A stretch of 64,000 nucleotides of DNA, from the NCBI RefSeq assembly GCF_009931435.1, contig NZ_CP043414.1; one strand, written 5' to 3'. The notes beneath the pieces were generated by a model. It did no database searches, was not told the origin of the DNA, and saw only the letters and a list, made by a program, of their open reading frames with translations. Source of the DNA: Escherichia coli. GTDB taxonomy: Bacteria; Pseudomonadota; Gammaproteobacteria; Enterobacterales; Enterobacteriaceae. Shown here piece after piece: positions 1-58,958 of the stretch (positions are counted from its first letter, which is position 1; the number at the start of each line of letters is the position of its first letter). A program made the position numbers and the translations under genes.

Positions 1-1811
1 GCGCTTTGTGGCGCCGGAATTTTTTCGTAGATTTTTTCTCCGCTTTCCCGCCATTTTTCAAAACCAAGATGCCACAGTATTTGTTGCTCCGGTGTAAGCG
101 GTATTAAGTGTTTCTCCCAGCTTGCTTTTTTTATCGGCGGCAGGTCGGTAAACAATGTTTGTTTTGTCGCCTGCTGTTGGGCTATTTGCTGGAAGCGGGT
201 GACAAGGTAAGTACGGGTTAGTCTTTTGGCAATCTCGGGAGTGACATCAGAAACAGAAGGAACTGGAAGCACTGGAAGATCAAACACAGGCGTATTTTTC
301 TTTTTCTCTTTGGTCATCCAGGGCGGCGAAACAAACAGCTCCGGCAACATATCCACAGTGGCATATTCACATTCTTCAGCTACTGGCTGCGGACGACATT
401 CAGATAAGATGCCTGCCGCTTTAGCATTAACCCAGGGAATGACGTCACATACCAACTCTGGCCTGATGGTAATCAGTTTGATAAGTGCGTTACGCCACTG
501 TGCATCTTCGTGTATTGCAAGCAAAGTAGCATAAGCGGCAATAGCTGCAGCGGGATGTTTTTGACAGGCTTTGCTTAAGTATTCCAGGTGCTTTTTCTTG
601 CCAATCACAGCGAGGATCAGAATTTGAATCGCATCCGGGTGATTCGTTTTCCATAGCCATTTGACAAGATTTTCAGTCTCGCTGTTGCGCTCGAAAAGAT
701 AAGTGGGATTGTCAGAATGCTCTTCCGTAAACTCAAGAAGGATCTGGCTTACACCCCGAATTCCATTATTCGCCAGCAACATTGCCAGATAAGCGCGAAA
801 ATTACGAAAATCACGATACAACGGTGGGAAGTCGTATTTTTCCACTGTACTCAGAGCAGTATCATCGGTTATCACCAGTCTTAACCAGGTCATCGCCGGA
901 ACGTTTTGGTCTGCATAGCGTAGAGCCATAGCATTGGCAATATCCGGGCGTTCAGGGAGCAGTAACGCGGCAAAAGGTTGCCGTGCTGGAGATAGCGAGG
1001 GAATAGCCGCGAGTACTTTATCTACACAGCGTTGCCACTCATCTTCTGAAGTGAGTGAAAGATGATGACATAGACGTTGATGCCAACTAGGTAGCGATTC
1101 TGCTTCGTGATTAGGTGGAATGATGGTGGTTACTGCGCCTTTTACTGGTTTATATTTGAGTTGAATAGCGAGAAGGGCAATTTCAACGGCACTTTCCAGA
1201 CCACAGCGAATGACTAAGTCATCGACCAATTCATCTGCAGAGTAAGAGTTCCAAAAACTCCAAAGCAATGCTGCATCAGATTGCGCACTTCCTGTCTGTT
1301 GACTACCCAGAATTCGCATTTGTAACTCAGCAAACGCCTGCTGCCAGTTTTCTGGATAAGAACGGTAATTGTTGTCGGGATCATATGCCCTGGTGTTATC
1401 TGCAATACGCTTCCATATCTCACCGTCTTTGCGCAGATAATTGATCTCTCTGGGGCGAGAGCGATGTGGAAAAGCAAATCGGTTAATATCGTCGGTTAGC
1501 GGAATGGCTGCATCATCAGCCAGCCATGGGCGTTTGTTTTTACTCTCAGGTGAAGTTTCAACTTCAGGAGTGACTTTGGTGACGGGGGGGATATGCACGT
1601 TTGCCGAAGCGTCTTCCACATAGCCTTTTTTCGTTTTCTCAGCGATAAGCTTCAGTTCCGCTTTTTCCGCCGCCGCAGCATCCGCAAAGCTTTTTATCTG
1701 GCTTTGCCCTTGGGTGCCAACTTTTCCCCAACTGATATGCAACTCGTTACCTTGCTGCCCCACCGCCCAGAATTTATGCGATTTTTCGTCCTGATAGATA
1801 TAACTCTTCAT
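1..1811 (-). CDS. molR: WGR-domain protein, MolR-like; N-terminal ~603 codons, gene continues beyond window start
   Basis: ATG at 1811 on minus strand gives MKSYIYQDEKSHKFWAVGQQGNELHISWGKVGTQG (WGR-like N-terminus). Frame hand-checked at 1-360, 1020-1080, 1440-1480 and 1800-1811 with no stop or frame change; not every codon checked. Lies downstream of metG on the same strand as in K-12. Confidence 0.65.
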   Translation of the reverse strand, partial: MKSYIYQDEKSHKFWAVGQQGNELHISWGKVGTQGQSQIKSFADAAAAEKAELKLIAEKTKKGYVEDASANVHIPPVTKVTPEVETSPESKNKRPWLADDAAIPLTDDINRFAFPHRSRPREINYLRKDGEIWKRIADNTRAYDPDNNYRSYPENWQQAFAELQMRILGSQQTGSAQSDAALLWSFWNSYSADELVDDLVIRCGLESAVEIALLAIQLKYKPVKGAVTTIIPPNHEAESLPSWHQRLCHHLSLTSEDEWQRCVDKVLAAIPSLSPARQPFAALLLPERPDIANAMALRYADQNVPAMTWLRLVITDDTALSTVEKYDFPPLYRDFRNFRAYLAMLLANNGIRGVSQILLEFTEEHSDNPTYLFERNSETENLVKWLWKTNHPDAIQILILAVIGKKKHLEYLSKACQKHPAAAIAAYATLLAIHEDAQWRNALIKLITIRPELVCDVIPWVNAKAAGILSECRPQPVAEECEYATVDMLPELFVSPPWMTKEKKKNTPVFDLPVLPVPSVSDVTPEIAKRLTRTYLVTRFQQIAQQQATKQTLFTDLPPIKKASWEKHLIPLTPEQQILWHLGFEKWRESGEKIYEKIPAPQS

Positions 1812-1910
1812 CCGCGTTCCCTGTATTTATATCCAGTTATAAGCGGATGCTAGCAGTTAATGAAAAAAATTAAGAGCGTTGAACAAACAAGAAAACAACT
1901 TTAGGAATTC

Positions 1911-1940
1911 ATAAAGAAAAGGCGCTGTCGATGCAGCGCC
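1911..1940 (-). terminator. Probable rho-independent terminator of metG
   Basis: Inverted repeat ggcgctg/cagcgcc (about 1921-1940) followed on the minus-strand transcript by a U-rich run, directly after the metG stop. Confidence 0.5.
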
Positions 1941-1951
1941 TTGAAGGGGGA

Positions 1952-3985
1952 TTATTTCACCTGATGGCCCGGTTTAGCACCGGCATCCGGGCTTAGCAGG
2001 AAAATATCTTTCCCGCCAGGACCGGCAGCCATCACCATGCCTTCAGAGATACCGAAGCGCATTTTACGTGGTGCCAGGTTAGCCACCATAATGGTGTGAC
2101 GACCAATAAGTGCCTGCGGATCCGGGTAAGCAGAACGAATGCCGGAGAAGACATTGCGTTTTTCACCGCCGAGATCCAGTGTCAGGCGCAGCAGTTTGTC
2201 AGAACCTTCAACAAACTCTGCGTTTTCAATCAGCGCCACGCGCAGGTCAACTTTAGCGAAGTCGTCAAAGGTGATGGTTTCCTGAATCGGATCATCTGCC
2301 AGCGGGCCAGTCACGGGGGCGGCAGTGGCTTTCACTTCTTCTTTAGACGCTTCCACCAGTGCTTCAACCTGCTTCATATCGATGCGGTTATACAGCGCCT
2401 TGAACGGATTCACTTTGTGGCCCAGCAGCGGTTGCTGGATGCCATCCCAGGTCAGTTCCGTATTGAGGAATGCTTCTGCACGCTCGGTCAGTTTTGGCAG
2501 TACCGGCTTCAGGTAAGTCATCAGTACGCGGAACAGGTTAATGCCCATAGAGCAAATCGCCTGCAGGTCAGCATCGCGACCTTCCTGCTTCGCCACCACC
2601 CACGGAGCCTGTTCATCGACATAGCGGTTAGCCAGGTCAGCCAGTGCCATGATTTCGCGCACTGCTTTACCAAATTCACGGCTTTCCCATGCTTCACCAA
2701 TCACTTCAGCGGCATCCGTGAAGGTTTTGTACAACTGCGGGTCAGCCAGTTCGCTTGCCAGCACGCCGTCAAAACGTTTGTTGATAAAGCCTGCGTTACG
2801 GGACGCCAGATTAACCACTTTGTTGACGATATCGGCATTCACACGCTGAACGAAATCTTCCAGGTTGAGATCGATATCATCAATGCGCGAAGAGAGTTTC
2901 GCAGTGTAGTAGTAACGCAGGCTGTCAGCGTCAAAATGATTCAGCCAGGTGCTGGCTTTAATAAAGGTGCCGCGAGACTTGGACATCTTCGCGCCGTTCA
3001 CCGTTACATAGCCGTGAACAAACAGGTTGGTCGGCTTGCGGAAGTTGCTACCTTCCAACATGGCAGGCCAGAACAGGCTGTGGAAGTAAACAATATCTTT
3101 ACCGATGAAGTGGTACAGCTCGGCGGTGGAGTCTTTCTTCCAGTATTCATCGAAGCTTACGCTGTCGCCGCGCTTGTCACACAGATTCTTGAAAGAACCC
3201 ATGTAGCCAATCGGTGCGTCCAGCCAGACGTAGAAATATTTGCCCGGCGCGTTCGGAATTTCAAAACCGAAGTACGGTGCATCGCGGGAGATATCCCATT
3301 GTTGCAGGCCAGATTCAAACCACTCCTGCATTTTGTTTGCCACCTGCTCCTGCAACGCACCGCTGCGGGTCCATGCCTGCAGCATTTCGCTGAAAGAGGG
3401 CAGATCAAAGAAGAAGTGTTCAGAATCACGCATTACCGGGGTAGCGCCAGAAACCACCGATTTCGGCTCGATCAGTTCAGTCGGGCTATATGTTGCGCCG
3501 CAGACTTCACAGTTATCGCCGTATTGATCCGGTGATTTACATTTCGGGCAGGTGCCTTTCACAAAACGGTCCGGCAGGAACATGCCTTTTTCCGGATCGT
3601 ACAGTTGAGAGATGGTGCGGTTTTTAATAAAACCGTTTTCCTTCAGGCGAGTATAGATAAGCTCAGACAACTGACGGTTCTCTTCACTGTGCGTCGAGTG
3701 ATAGTTGTCATAGCTGATGTTAAAGCCTGCGAAATCAGTCTGATGCTCCTGACTCATTTCGCCAATCATCTGCTCCGGAGTGATACCAAGCTGCTGAGCT
3801 TTCAGCATGATTGGTGTACCGTGGGCATCGTCGGCGCAGATGAAGTTGACCTCGTGGCCGCGCATTCGCTGGTAACGGACCCAGACATCAGCCTGGATGT
3901 GCTCCAGCATATGGCCGAGGTGGATTGAGCCGTTAGCGTACGGCAGTGCGCACGTCACCAGAATTTTCTTCGCGACTTGAGTCAT
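1952..3985 (-). CDS. metG: Methionine--tRNA ligase
   Basis: 680-aa ORF with HIGH-type motif ([11 protein letters not shown]) and KMSKS motif. Start set at the internal ATG giving [10 protein letters not shown] (677 aa) from memory of K-12 MetG; the ORF could begin 3 codons upstream (MPTMTQ). Confidence 0.95.
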
Positions 3986-10999: not shown

Positions 11000-11029
11000 T
11001 TCCCCCTCATGATGAGGGGGCTTTTTTTA
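11000..11029 (+). terminator. Probable rho-independent terminator after yehA
   Basis: Hairpin tccccctcat/gatgaggggg followed by a run of seven T. Confidence 0.55.
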
Positions 11030-11365
11030 GCGATGATAAAAAATCTCACCGTCGTAGGCTTTAATGATTTTACCGTCGGCATCGTTGATCAACACGTATG
11101 CGCCACCCATATAGGTCCAGTGCGTTCCGGCATCAGGAGCGGGCAGGTTACGTAACTGCCACTGCTTAATGTTGTACTCATCGGTGCGGTACATCTCTGG
11201 GACGGTATCGCCTGGTTTGAAATGCTTAAAGTCAGCAATGAAACTGCTTAACTCATACTTAGAAATTCCCGAGGTATTGGTCGAACCCGCGGTGGCTGGT
11301 GCGGCCCAGGCGGCACTGGTAACCAGCAATAGCGCACCCAGCAACATCTTATTTTTAATGGTCAT
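11027..11365 (-). CDS. rcnB: Periplasmic Ni/Co homeostasis protein RcnB
   Basis: Track ORF is 172 aa; internal ATG giving MTIKNKMLLGALLLVTSAAWA (signal peptide, 112 aa) matches my memory of RcnB; downstream of rcnA on the same strand. Confidence 0.85.
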   Translation of the reverse strand: MTIKNKMLLGALLLVTSAAWAAPATAGSTNTSGISKYELSSFIADFKHFKPGDTVPEMYRTDEYNIKQWQLRNLPAPDAGTHWTYMGGAYVLINDADGKIIKAYDGEIFYHR

Positions 11366-11569: not shown

Positions 11570-12391
11570 CTATCGCATAATGCCCATAAAGCCATGCACG
11601 CCCATATACACCCCAACTAAGCCAATCAACAGACTGGAAAAATAGGGCGCACGTTTAGCGAGAGTGTTAAATCCGCTCCAGCGTTTTGCGACCTGCTGAA
11701 CGCTGATTGCTGCGCCAACGCCTACGGTGACCAGCGTTAACGCCAGGCCAATGCTGAAACTGACGACCAGTGTTGCGCCCAGTGTCAGGGCTTTCAACTG
11801 AATACAAATCAACAGCACGGTAATTGCTGCCGGGCAGGGGATCAGTCCACCTGTTAACCCAAACAATAAAATTTGCCAGTTGGTCACTTCTCTGCCATTG
11901 AAGCGTCGTTTGATGTCATTGGCATGGGCTCGTGCATGAGCATCCTGATACTCCCCATGTTCGTGATGGTGATGATGTCCATGGTCGTGGTGATCTTCGT
12001 GATCGTGATGATACTCATGATCATGCCCGTGCATATTCTCCAGCCAGTTGCGTTCGCCGCGCCAGGTACGCCAGAACATCCAGAACGCGGTGCCAATAAT
12101 GATCACCGCGGAAATCAACTGGAGCCACGGTTCTGCAGATTGAGCAGTAAAACGTTTGCTGATCACCATCCCGCCAAAGGCAATCAACCAGACCACCGCG
12201 GTATGCGAAAGGGTTGCTGCCAGTCCGAGCATCACCGCCTGTTTAATGGTGCCTTTGATGGCGATGATAAACGCCGCCATCATCGTTTTTGAGTGCCCTG
12301 GTTCCAGGCCATGAAGCGCACCAAGTAAGATGGCGCTGGGAATGAAGAACCAGGCGTTTCCTTGCTGAAGAAGAGTGGTAAATTCGGTCAT
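11570..12391 (-). CDS. rcnA: Nickel/cobalt efflux permease RcnA
   Basis: 273-aa membrane protein with a His-rich loop (HGHDHEYHHDHEDHHDHGHHHHHEHGE). Confidence 0.9.
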   Translation of the reverse strand: MTEFTTLLQQGNAWFFIPSAILLGALHGLEPGHSKTMMAAFIIAIKGTIKQAVMLGLAATLSHTAVVWLIAFGGMVISKRFTAQSAEPWLQLISAVIIIGTAFWMFWRTWRGERNWLENMHGHDHEYHHDHEDHHDHGHHHHHEHGEYQDAHARAHANDIKRRFNGREVTNWQILLFGLTGGLIPCPAAITVLLICIQLKALTLGATLVVSFSIGLALTLVTVGVGAAISVQQVAKRWSGFNTLAKRAPYFSSLLIGLVGVYMGVHGFMGIMR

Positions 12392-12428
12392 GATAATAAT
12401 TCTTAGTATTAATTCGGCAATCCGATTC

Positions 12429-12463
12429 TACTCCCCCCCAGTACCTGATACTACCCCCCAGTA
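12429..12463. promoter_or_regulatory. Two tandem RcnR operator-like sites in the rcnA/rcnR divergent promoter region
   Basis: tactcccccccagta and tactaccccccagta seen directly, 5 nt apart; they fit the TACT-G-tract-AGTA operator form I recall for RcnR. Confidence 0.8.
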
Positions 12464-12511
12464 GAATAATAGTGCTATGATTTTTCATGTTCTTGTTAAC
12501 CAGGTGTTGCC

Positions 12512-12784
12512 ATGTCTCATACAATCCGTGATAAACAGAAACTGAAAGCGCGTGCCAGTAAGATTCAGGGTCAGGTCGTGGCGCTCAAGAAAATGCTCGA
12601 CGAGCCGCACGAATGCGCAGCTGTTCTACAACAGATTGCTGCTATCCGTGGCGCGGTAAACGGTCTGATGCGGGAAGTGATTAAAGGTCATCTGACGGAA
12701 CACATCGTTCACCAGGGGGATGAGCTAAAACGTGAAGAAGATCTGGATGTCGTTCTGAAGGTGCTGGATTCATATATCAAATAA
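12512..12784 (+). CDS. rcnR: Ni/Co-responsive repressor RcnR (CsoR/RcnR family)
   Basis: 90-aa [41 protein letters not shown]; divergent from rcnA. Confidence 0.9.
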
Positions 12785-12874: not shown

Positions 12875-12990
12875 ACCAAACGACTCGGGGTGCCCTTCTG
12901 CGTGAAGGCTGAGAAATACCCGTATCACCTGATCTGGATAATGCCAGCGTAGGGAAGTCACAGACCACCAGGTCATTGCTTCTTCACGTT
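12875..12990 (+). promoter_or_regulatory. TPP riboswitch (thi box) in the thiM leader
   Basis: ggggtgcccttctgcgtgaaggctgagaaatacccgtatcacctgatctggataatgccagcgtagggaa immediately upstream of thiM; conserved THI-element core (ctgaga, cctgatctggataatgccagcg). Boundaries approximate. Confidence 0.9.
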
Positions 12991-29217: not shown

Positions 29218-29304
29218 AAAAAATAAGCCCGTGTAAGGGAGATTACACAGGCTAAGGAGGTGGTTCCTGGTACAGCTAGCATTTTATGGGTTATGTTTTT
29301 CAGC
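29218..29304 (-). ncRNA. cyaR: CyaR (RyeE) Hfq-dependent small RNA
   Basis: Minus-strand sequence GCUGAAAAACAUAACCCAUAAAAUGCUAGCUGUACCAGGAACCACCUCCUUAGCCUGUGUAAUCUCCCUUACACGGGCUUAUUUUUU matches the CyaR sequence as I recall it, including the terminator hairpin and U-tail. Confidence 0.85.
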
Positions 29305-29388
29305 GAAACGGATGATAACCTTAATAAATGCAGCTGTATGTGATCGGTTTCTAAGAATTTTCCATCCGGGAAAAATAATCGAAATTAA

Positions 29389-43389: not shown

Positions 43390-43531
43390 GAAACGGGAAA
43401 GCCCCTCCCGAGGAAGGGGCCTTAAATAAGGAAAGGGTCATGATGAAGCTACTCATCATCGTGGTGCTCTTAGTGATTAGCTACCCAGCATACTAAGACT
43501 ACCAGGGCGGGGGAAACCCCGCTCTACCCTC
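43390..43531 (-). ncRNA. sibB: Sib antisense RNA covering ibsB
   Basis: Minus-strand promoter: -35 TTGACA (revcomp of about 43562-43567), 17-nt spacer, -10 TACTTT (revcomp of about 43539-43544); terminator-like hairpin gcccctcc...ggaagggg near 43401-43420. Ends approximate. Confidence 0.6.
43440..43496 (+). CDS. ibsB: Type I toxin Ibs (18 aa, hydrophobic)
   Basis: ATGATGAAGCTACTC... encodes MMKLLIIVVLLVISYPAY, preceded by aaggaaaggg. A/B assignment by position (copy nearer mdtA), from memory. Confidence 0.8.
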   Translation: MMKLLIIVVLLVISYPAY

Positions 43532-43717
43532 ACTCCTGAAAGTATGCCTTCACGATAAGATTGTCAATCCGCAGGATTTGCCGTCTGCGATCCTGCCAGC
43601 AAATATTCTTTGCGAGTCGTTACGCAATAATCACAGAGGAAACTATTTTATTCACGCGTTAGCGATAGACTGCATTCAGGGCGAAAGGAGGTAAGCCGAT
43701 GATTTCAGCGGGACGCT

Positions 43718-43866
43718 GAAACGGGAAAGCCTCTCCCGGAGAAGAGGGCTTTTAATAAGGAAAGGGTTATGATGAAGCACGTCATCATACTGGTGATACT
43801 CTTAGTGATTAGCTTCCAGGCTTACTAAGAACACCAGGGGGAGGGGGAAACCTCTCCCTAACCCTC
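43718..43866 (-). ncRNA. sibA: Sib antisense RNA covering ibsA
   Basis: Minus-strand promoter: -35 TTGACA (revcomp of about 43897-43902), 17-nt spacer, -10 TAATTT (revcomp of about 43874-43879); hairpin gcctctcccggagaagagggc near 43730-43750. Ends approximate. Confidence 0.6.
43769..43828 (+). CDS. ibsA: Type I toxin Ibs (19 aa, hydrophobic)
   Basis: ATGATGAAGCACGTC... encodes MMKHVIILVILLVISFQAY; second copy of the repeat unit, nearer yegL. Confidence 0.8.
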   Translation: MMKHVIILVILLVISFQAY

Positions 43867-44048
43867 ACTCCTGAAATTATGTCACTCCGCACTTAGTGTC
43901 AATCGACGGCTCTCCGTTCTTGCGAGGCGAATAGCAAAATTTTCTGCGCCGCCGGGCCTAATTCTGAAAGTTTCTTCGTTTGCTCTTATTTCATTATTGC
44001 AGTCGGTATGATACCGGACCTCGATAATTCTCTAAGAAAGGATTTCTT

Positions 44049-58478: not shown

Positions 58479-58946
58479 AGTAAGTACAAAACCTATTCGT
58501 TGTATGACAAATGTCACAATTCGATCATGGATAAATCGGGGCAAAAATGCAATGTTGCAGCACTATTTATCTCATATTATTTGAGGGTAATAACCTCACA
58601 TTATCCCTGAATTAAAAGTGGTAATAATAAAACATTATTTAAGAAATATCGCATGTGGAGGCGCAATATTAAATATTGTCAACCTAAAGAAACTCCTAAA
58701 AACCATATTGAATGACACTTAATATAATTCTTAAAAATAGCCAATTGCCGAATTGTTACCTTGCCTGCTATTCCGTTAGCTGTAACACTTCCTCCTGCAT
58801 TATTGGAGAGCCAATATTCAATTACCATAATGTCACCTTATATTCGGAAGTTAATTTCCGCAATAACCCTTTCTCATCAACGATTGTATGCAGAGAGGGT
58901 TTGAAAAATTAAGCTAAATCAGTGTATTGGTAGCTAAAAAGCCAGG

Positions 58947-58958
58947 GGCGGTAGCGTG
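58947..58958 (+). promoter_or_regulatory. ops (operon polarity suppressor) element in the wza 5' leader
   Basis: ggcggtagcgtg seen directly, about 180 nt upstream of the wza ATG; matches the RfaH-recruiting ops consensus GGCGGTAGnnTG. Confidence 0.7.

What the first reader, a model, noticed from the sequence alone, without database searches (positions are those of the whole stretch)
12392..12511. Tandem TACT-C7/C6-AGTA operator-like sites between rcnA and rcnR
Two near-identical sites (tactcccccccagta and tactaccccccagta) sit 5 nt apart in the 120-bp divergent promoter region, consistent with the G/C-tract operators bound by RcnR. The adjacent rcnA encodes a His-rich loop (HDHEYHHDHEDHHDHGHHHHHEHGE) typical of Ni/Co handling. 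The sequence argues for an intact metal-responsive switch.
Basis: partly seen in the sequence, partly recalled or inferred. Interest (0 to 1): 0.3.

Follow-up and report, generated by a model that had tools for sequence, protein, structure and literature searches.

The report
Known RcnR nickel/cobalt operator pair
The two repeated sites are the already characterised binding sites of the E. coli nickel/cobalt repressor RcnR, which lie between rcnA and rcnR, so the finding is correct but ordinary.

Summary
TACTCCCCCCCAGTA (12429-12443) and TACTACCCCCCAGTA (12449-12463) lie 5 nt apart in the 120-bp gap between rcnA (minus strand) and rcnR (plus strand). About 0.01 such matches are expected by chance in the window.

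The window is E. coli chromosome. Both sites and the spacer are identical to K-12 MG1655, and RcnR is 100% identical to the K-12 protein. RcnA and RcnB are intact at 98% identity.

[quoted passage not shown] 2011, as cited in PMC7055735, PMC3902906 and PMC5146963). [quoted passage not shown] Ni(II) or Co(II) releases the repressor.

A scan of 100,044 species genomes found the tandem architecture 90 times, and 89 of these were in an rcnA/rcnR context. The positions that the search pattern left free were still conserved, while the spacer sequence varied.

Minor extras are rare E. coli alleles with one or three sites and a rare flank allele in this window.

The parts
12429..12443 (+). RcnR operator site 1 (rcnA-proximal): TACT-C7-AGTA, which is TACT-G6-G-AGTA on the minus strand
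   Evidence: Identical to K-12. Fits the published TACT-G6-N-AGTA motif.
12444..12448 (.). 5-nt spacer CCTGA. It sets a 20-bp centre-to-centre distance, about two helical turns.
   Evidence: Across species the spacer is 5 nt (73 loci) or 6 nt (16 loci), with 38 different sequences, and its last base is always A.
12449..12463 (+). RcnR operator site 2 (rcnR-proximal): TACT-A-C6-AGTA, which is TACT-G6-T-AGTA on the minus strand
   Evidence: Identical to K-12. The inner 7 bases, which the cross-species search left free, are ACCCCCC in 77 of 89 loci.
12425..12467 (.). Extended perfect 8-nt inverted repeat ATTCTACT / AGTAGAAT that brackets the whole tandem operator
   Evidence: I1, 100% complementary. 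ATTC (12425-12428) and GAA (12464-12466) are conserved across species. K-12 has AGTAGATT, one mismatch.
12473..12481 (+). Inferred extended -10 element of the rcnR promoter (TGcTATGAT). The inferred start of transcription is near 12488.
   Evidence: flags TATGAT with an upstream TG. In 84 aligned intergenic regions the conserved positions are T12473, G12474, T12476, A12477 and T12481, about 90% each. The start site was not mapped here.
12425..12430 (-). Candidate -10 element of the rcnA promoter (TAGAAT on the minus strand), overlapping the outer half of site 1. The inferred start of transcription is near 12418.
   Evidence: A12425, which is the final T of the hexamer, is about 90% conserved. 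This is an inference only.
12512..12784 (+). rcnR, the Ni(II)/Co(II)-responsive repressor of the CsoR/RcnR family (90 aa)
11570..12391 (-). rcnA, the Ni/Co efflux permease (273 aa).
11027..11365 (-). rcnB, the periplasmic accessory protein of the efflux system (112 aa)

Best explanation
This is the shared operator of the divergent rcnA(B) and rcnR promoters of E. coli.

Without metal, one apo-RcnR tetramer binds each TACT-G6-N-AGTA site. The published model has it contacting the TACT/AGTA inverted repeats and recognising the A-form-like shape of the G/C tract.

[quoted passage not shown] The published model also has the flanking DNA wrapped.

The bound repressor covers the core promoter elements of both genes, so it represses the efflux operon and its own gene.

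Ni(II) or Co(II) binding to RcnR (N-terminal amine, His3, Glu34, Cys35, Glu63, His64) lowers its DNA affinity. Both promoters are then derepressed and RcnAB exports the excess metal.

Shown here: the sequence is identical to the characterised K-12 operator, the repressor is identical, and the architecture is conserved across species. Taken from the literature: binding, stoichiometry and the metal response. Inferred here: the promoter positions.
For: - Sites and chance expectation.
- Sites and spacer are identical to K-12 MG1655; the three SNPs in the 120-bp region all lie outside them.
- RcnR is 100% identical to K-12.
- Family assignments. RefSeq annotation.
- Literature: a tandem type 1 operator, 1:1 stoichiometry, minor-groove contacts at TACT/AGTA and an A-form G-tract (PMC3902906).
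- The operator has been reused as a cobalt-inducible part (PMC7105576).
- The intergenic region is present at 95% identity or more in 5,316 of 5,426 complete E. coli genomes.
- Of 90 genome hits to the tandem pattern (about 0.3 expected by chance, my calculation), 89 lie in an rcnA/rcnR context: 79 show both genes, 7 are cut at a locus end and 3 have rcnR with another divergent gene.
- Positions the pattern left free are conserved (ACCCCCC in 77 of 89), while the spacer sequence is free but its length is 5 or 6 nt.
- An IncHI2 plasmid copy with diverged flanks keeps both 15-mers exactly.
Against: I found nothing that contradicts it. The limits are these.

- Binding and the metal response were not tested here, and cannot be tested with these tools.
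- The primary papers (Iwig & Chivers 2009; Blaha et al. 2011) were not held in the library. Their content is cited through later papers (searches failed).
- The promoter positions are inferred from conservation, not from mapped transcription start sites.
- The cross-species set was found by a pattern that fixes site 1 and the TACT/AGTA arms of site 2, so it cannot show how many RcnR orthologues lack the tandem arrangement. A Ralstonia homologue at 62% identity has a degenerate second site.
Confidence: 0.95

Rival explanations
1. The two 15-mers are a chance or low-complexity coincidence (poly-C runs in an AT-rich intergenic region) with no function.
For: The arms are only 4 nt long and the core is a homopolymer, so each site taken alone is simple sequence.
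Against: About 0.01 matches are expected in the window and 2 are observed. The sites are identical in 5,300 or more E. coli genomes. The same tandem arrangement lies in an rcnA/rcnR context in 89 of 90 hits across Enterobacterales, Vibrio, Shewanella and two betaproteobacteria, while the surrounding sequence diverges.
Confidence: 0.005
2. The element acts at the RNA level. The inverted repeats would form a hairpin in the rcnA leader, as an attenuator or a stability element, rather than a protein-binding DNA site.
For: The minus-strand transcript can pair UUCUACU with AGUAGAA and GUAGUA with UACUGG, giving a minimum free energy of -15.2 kcal/mol.
Against: The fold is no better than shuffles (z = -0.63; 54 of 200 shuffles fold at least as well). 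If the inferred rcnA -10 element at 12430-12425 is right, most of the element lies upstream of the transcript. No Rfam family matches here. Published footprints show that protein binds this DNA.
Confidence: 0.02
3. The C7 and C6 homopolymer tracts are slipped-strand contingency tracts that phase-vary rcnA/rcnR expression.
For: One E. coli genome (APEC37) carries C10 in site 1. Rare alleles with one or three 20-bp units also exist.
Against: Tract lengths are constant in nearly all of about 5,300 E. coli genomes (5,316 at 95% identity or more over 120 bp). They are also constant across genera. The C10 case is a single assembly and could be a homopolymer sequencing error.
Confidence: 0.02
4. The sites are bound mainly by another regulator, either the paralogue FrmR or Fur, rather than RcnR.
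For: FrmR is the nearest paralogue (76 bits, below its 133-bit cutoff). A Fur-box-like 14/19 match lies at 12386-12410. Koch et al. 2007, known to me by title only, linked RcnRA to iron.
Against: FrmR sites are described as 9-bp GC tracts flanked by ATAC/GTAT, which is a different motif. The Fur-like match lies outside the two sites, over the rcnA start codon. It would be an additional input, not an alternative reading of the sites.
Confidence: 0.01

Closest known systems
E. coli K-12 rcnA-rcnR tandem type 1 RcnR operator (TACT-G6-N-AGTA x2; Iwig & Chivers 2009 J Mol Biol 393:514; Blaha et al. 2011 Biochimie 93:434)
   Same: It has the same locus, the same gene order, and identical 15-mers and 5-nt spacer. 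The repressor is 100% identical.
   Different: There are three SNPs in the 120-bp region, all outside the sites: 12423 is C (K-12 T), 12466 is A (K-12 T) and 12489 is G (K-12 A). The 12466 change makes the outer 8-nt inverted repeat perfect. The RcnA His-rich loop differs by a 1-aa deletion and three substitutions.
E. coli FrmR operator in Pfrm (tandem type 1 sites, CsoR/RcnR family)
   Same: It has tandem type 1 architecture: a GC tract flanked by short AT-rich inverted repeats, bound by a tetrameric DUF156 repressor.
   Different: It has 9-bp GC tracts with ATAC/GTAT arms, its effector is formaldehyde, and it lies at a different locus.
CsoR type 2 operators (for example Streptomyces lividans or B. 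subtilis CsoR)
   Same: It belongs to the same repressor family, and the GTA dyads act as high-affinity anchors.
   Different: The G/C tracts are interrupted with about 11 bp between the arms, two tetramers bind each site, and the effector is Cu(I).

Membership tests
RcnR tandem type 1 operator (rcnA-rcnR) | Sequence motif TACT-G6-N-AGTA (either strand) | tested here: met
   Both sites match TACTNCCCCCCAGTA with 0 mismatches. The motif is as quoted.
RcnR tandem type 1 operator (rcnA-rcnR) | Two copies in the intergenic region between divergent rcnA and rcnR | tested here: met
   The same arrangement is seen in an rcnA/rcnR context in 89 of 90 cross-species hits.
RcnR tandem type 1 operator (rcnA-rcnR) | Identity with the experimentally characterised K-12 sequence | tested here: met
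   The alignment with NC_000913.3 shows sites and spacer identical.
RcnR tandem type 1 operator (rcnA-rcnR) | Spacing that puts both sites on the same helical face | tested here: met
   The start-to-start spacing is 20 bp. It is 20 or 21 bp in all 89 related loci.
RcnR tandem type 1 operator (rcnA-rcnR) | Binding by apo-RcnR and release by Ni(II)/Co(II) | not testable with these tools
   Published for the identical K-12 sequence. Not measured for this allele.
CsoR/RcnR (DUF156) repressors, RcnR equivalog | Profile match above the curated cutoff, with the metal ligands His3, Glu34, Cys35, Glu63 and His64 present | tested here: met
   PF02583 at 75.8 bits against a cutoff of 22.8. NF011613 at 197.3 bits against a cutoff of 138. 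The residues are listed as invariant with K-12, and the ligand list is.
NicO / RcnA nickel-cobalt efflux permease | Full-length profile match with a His-rich cytoplasmic loop | tested here: met
   PF03824 at 234.5 bits. NF007454 at 554.5 bits against a cutoff of 195. The loop is seen.
Fur box (considered for 12386-12410) | Close match to GATAATGATAATCATTATC | tested here: inconclusive
   The match is 14 of 19, among the top 9 of about 128,000 positions in the window. It overlaps the rcnA start codon, and no binding data were found.
Phase-variable homopolymer tract (considered) | Tract length varies among closely related genomes | tested here: not met
   5,316 of 5,319 matching E. coli genomes are 95% identical or more over the 120 bp. 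Only one C10 variant was seen.

The most novel reading that the evidence does not exclude
The operator is known, but its natural allelic series is not described in anything I could read.

This window carries a rare flank allele, found in 20 of 5,319 genomes. Its A at 12466 restores a perfect 8-nt outer palindrome (ATTCTACT/AGTAGAAT) and matches the cross-species consensus. Other E. coli strains carry one or three 20-bp operator units.

These variants might shift the Ni/Co set-point of rcnA/rcnR expression, by changing repressor occupancy, DNA wrapping or the overlapping -10 elements.
Probability: 0.1. Interest if true: 0.25.

Novelty: already known. Interest (0 to 1): 0.06.

Why it matters
It matters little as a discovery, because this is the textbook RcnR operator of E. 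coli, already footprinted, measured thermodynamically and reused as a synthetic cobalt-inducible part.

The result is useful as a positive control. The first-stage reader recognised a real regulatory element correctly from sequence alone.

The cross-species data also give an independent computational confirmation that the tandem 20/21-bp-phased architecture is maintained wherever rcnR is found.

The rare one-site and three-site alleles offer ready-made natural mutants for anyone studying cooperative binding or wrapping by RcnR.

Tried and rejected
- **Primary papers not available.** I tried to read the primary and related papers directly: Iwig & Chivers 2009 by PubMed id, Bleriot 2011 (PMC3147525), Huang 2018 (PMC5766909), Iwig 2008 (PMC2435081) and Li 2020 (PMC6957110). 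None is held, so literature claims rest on later open-access papers that quote them.
- **Generic promoter scan rejected.** It gave two hits. The minus-strand -10 element at 12398-12393 abuts the rcnA start codon, and the plus-strand hit has its -10 element (12520-12525) inside rcnR coding sequence. The conservation-based assignment is preferred but still unproven.
- **RNA structure rejected.** The z-score is -0.63 and there is no Rfam hit in the region.
- **Fur-box lead left inconclusive.**
- **No solved structure.** There is no RcnR or RcnR-DNA structure in the PDB copy, and the nearest entry is FrmR 5lcy.
- **Scan choice.** I ran no further search on a protein-based search. I used a cheaper DNA pattern instead, so the fraction of RcnR orthologues without the tandem site is unknown.

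Full report
**Observation**

The sequence between 12392 and 12511 is the 120-bp gap between two divergent ORFs. One is 273 aa on the minus strand (11570-12391). The other is 90 aa on the plus strand (12512-12784).

Within the gap, TACTCCCCCCCAGTA lies at 12429-12443 and TACTACCCCCCAGTA at 12449-12463. They are separated by CCTGA, so the start-to-start spacing is 20 bp.

A search for TACTNCCCCCCAGTA with up to one mismatch finds only these two places in the 64-kb window. The expected count by chance is 0.01, and none of 100 shuffles gave two matches.

**What the locus is**

The 120-bp region matches 5,319 of 5,426 complete E. coli genomes, and 5,316 of these are 95% identical or more. In the identical RefSeq locus the genes are annotated yehA, rcnB, rcnA, rcnR, a TPP riboswitch, thiM and thiD. 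This is the same order as in K-12 MG1655.

- Pfam assigns NicO to the 273-aa protein, Trns_repr_metal (the CsoR/RcnR family) to the 90-aa protein, and RcnB to the 112-aa protein.
- NCBIfam places the 90-aa protein in the RcnR equivalog, at 197 bits against a cutoff of 138. It places the permease in the nickel/cobalt efflux subfamily, at 554 bits against a cutoff of 195.
- RcnR is 100% identical to the K-12 protein.
- RcnA is 98% identical, with one deleted residue and three substitutions in the His-rich loop, plus three substitutions elsewhere.
- RcnB is 98% identical.

**Comparison with the characterised operator**

Aligned with K-12 MG1655, both 15-mers and the spacer are identical. The three differences in the 120 bp lie outside them: 12423 is C where K-12 has T, 12466 is A where K-12 has T, and 12489 is G where K-12 has A.

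Read on the minus strand, the sites are TACT-GGGGGG-G-AGTA and TACT-GGGGGG-T-AGTA. That is exactly the published motif.

The literature I could read says the following:
[quoted passage not shown] 2011 and Iwig & Chivers 2009).
- The operator is a tandem of two type 1 sites, bound 1:1. Contacts are in the minor groove at the TACT/AGTA repeats, and the unbroken G/C tract gives A-form character (PMC3902906).
- The operator has been transplanted behind a heterologous promoter to build a cobalt-inducible expression system (PMC7105576).
- The title of Blaha et al. 2011 states that RcnR represses both rcnA and rcnR through a shared operator.

**Independent evidence from related sequences**

I scanned one genome from each of 100,044 species for TACTNCCCCCCAGTA, then 1-10 free bases, then TACT-N7-AGTA. 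The scan gave 90 loci. By my own calculation about 0.3 are expected by chance: 22 specified bases, 10 allowed spacings and 6x10^11 positions.

After orienting all loci alike, tblastn placed an rcnA homologue to the left on the minus strand and an rcnR homologue to the right on the plus strand in 79 of the 90. Seven more show one of the two genes and end too close to the site to hold the other. Three have rcnR but a different divergent gene. That gives 89 of 90 in an rcnA/rcnR context. The hosts are many Enterobacterales genera, Vibrio, Shewanella, Rhodocyclus and Chromobacterium.

The positions that the search pattern left free are informative:
- The inner seven bases of site 2 are ACCCCCC in 77 of 89 loci, and the rest differ by one or two bases.
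- The N of site 1 is C in 86 of 89.
- The spacer takes 38 different sequences, but its length is only 5 nt (73 loci) or 6 nt (16 loci), and its last base is always A.

A constant 20/21-bp phasing with free spacer sequence is what same-face binding of two tetramers predicts.

An IncHI2 plasmid of Enterobacter hormaechei carries an rcnR at 92% identity. Its intergenic flanks have diverged, yet both 15-mers are exact.

A Ralstonia homologue at 62% identity keeps one good site (TACTCCCCCCTAGTA) and a degenerate second one.

One caveat applies. The pattern fixes site 1 and the arms of site 2, so this set cannot tell how many RcnR orthologues lack the tandem arrangement.

**Anatomy around the sites (inference)**

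The tandem operator sits inside a perfect 8-nt inverted repeat, ATTCTACT (12425-12432) and AGTAGAAT (12460-12467).

In a MAFFT alignment of 84 distinct intergenic regions, several blocks outside the sites are conserved:
- ATTC at 12425-12428.
- GAA at 12464-12466.
- The pattern TGnTAnnnT at 12473-12481.
- AATTCTT at 12399-12404.
- Both start codons.

TGcTATGAT is an extended -10 element. The positions conserved in it are the ones that matter for sigma-70 recognition. I therefore infer that the rcnR promoter starts transcription near 12488. That places site 2 over its -35 region.

On the minus strand, TAGAAT (12430-12425) is a 5/6 match to a -10 element, and its final T is about 90% conserved. 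I infer that it is the rcnA -10 element, with transcription starting near 12418. That places site 1 and site 2 across the -10 to -45 region of the rcnA promoter.

Both inferences fit the published "shared operator", but no transcription start site was mapped here.

I rejected the two hits of the generic promoter scan. One abuts the rcnA start codon, and the other has its -10 element inside rcnR coding sequence.

**Rivals**

- **Chance** is excluded.
- **An RNA-level hairpin** is not supported. The minus-strand leader folds no better than shuffles (z = -0.63), and no Rfam family matches the region.
- **Phase variation of the C tracts** is not supported. Tract lengths are constant in essentially all E. 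coli genomes and across genera. A single C10 variant was seen.
- **FrmR** recognises a different motif.
- **A Fur-box-like 14/19 match** at 12386-12410 lies outside the sites. At most it would be an extra input.

**Natural variants seen in passing**

- About nine E. coli genomes carry an exact 20-bp deletion that fuses the two sites into one TACT-C7-AGTA. Strain 97-3250 shows it in two independent assemblies.
- Strains EC26 and WW2 carry 20-bp and 23-bp duplications that give three sites, and APEC37 has a C10 tract.
- The allele in this window is 99% identical or more in only 20 of 5,319 genomes.
- Its A at 12466 matches the cross-species consensus and completes the outer palindrome, which K-12 lacks.

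Whether any of these changes regulation is untested.

**Verdict**

The element is the known RcnR tandem operator of the rcnA-rcnR divergent promoter region, and it appears intact together with its repressor and efflux genes. Novelty is "already known" and interest is low.

Noticed in passing
L005 3001-3100 (E. coli 97_3250); also H51-H57, H59, H60: About nine complete E. coli genomes have an exact 20-bp deletion, one operator unit of 15-bp site plus 5-bp spacer. It leaves a single TACT-C7-AGTA site in a 100-bp rcnA-rcnR gap. Two independent assemblies of strain 97-3250 both show it.
   Followed up: partly
L096 (EC26), L097 (WW2), L098 (APEC37); alignment: Rare E. coli alleles carry three operator sites (a 20-bp duplication in EC26, a 23-bp duplication in WW2). 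One allele has site 1 expanded to TACT-C10-AGTA (APEC37), which could be a homopolymer sequencing error.
   Followed up: partly
window 12423, 12466, 12489: The intergenic allele of this window differs from K-12 at three positions and is rare: 20 of 5,319 genomes are 99% identical or more. The A at 12466 makes the outer inverted repeat ATTCTACT/AGTAGAAT perfect and matches the cross-species consensus GAA.
   Followed up: partly
window 12386-12410: A Fur-box-like sequence matches GATAATGATAATCATTATC at 14 of 19 positions on either strand. It overlaps the rcnA start codon and is among the nine best of about 128,000 positions in the window. The block AATTCTT (12399-12404) is conserved across species. 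A link between RcnRA and iron is suggested only by the title of Koch et al. 2007.
   Followed up: partly
window 11951-12031 (RcnA residues 121-147): The His-rich loop of RcnA differs from K-12 by a one-residue deletion and three substitutions (HDHE-YHHDHEDHH versus HDYEHHHHDHEHHH). RcnA also has L61I, G100S and N165D relative to K-12.
   Followed up: no
L003 1743-2773 (Enterobacter hormaechei IncHI2 plasmid pC309-VIM4): A plasmid-borne rcnR at 92% identity keeps both operator 15-mers exactly, with spacer AAATA. Its rcnA is cut short next to an IS26 copy, leaving a 214-aa ORF. In one search, 411 plasmids carry an RcnR of 90-95% identity.
   Followed up: partly
L008 302-1137; also L080 and L090: In Shewanella (L008, read in detail) rcnR and the tandem operator are present, but the divergent gene encodes a 116-aa membrane protein with no Pfam match above cutoff instead of RcnA. 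L080 (Shewanella) and L090 also have rcnR and the tandem site but no RcnA hit; their divergent gene was not examined.
   Followed up: partly
L088 2702-3191: The single hit outside an rcnR context lies in a contig whose ORF translations suggest a high-GC genome. It reads TACT-C7-AGTA, 7 nt, TACT-G7-AGTA (the two sites in opposite orientation), immediately upstream of a DUF4396 membrane protein (145 bits). It could be an operator for another regulator, but this was not tested.
   Followed up: partly
L004 1272-2773 (Ralstonia pseudosolanacearum megaplasmid): An RcnR homologue at 62% identity lies next to a 386-aa RcnA with a much longer His/Asp-rich loop. The operator has one good site, TACTCCCCCCTAGTA, with the odd base on the other side of the C tract, and a degenerate second site.
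   Followed up: no
window 12876-12972 (+), 29221-29306 (-), 43425-43567 (-), 43754-43902 (-), 58920-58958 (+): Rfam matches above gathering score elsewhere in the window: a TPP riboswitch before thiM, CyaR sRNA, two SIB antitoxin RNAs and a JUMPstart element. I expect all of these in this part of the E. coli chromosome (from memory; only the TPP riboswitch was seen in an annotation).
   Followed up: no
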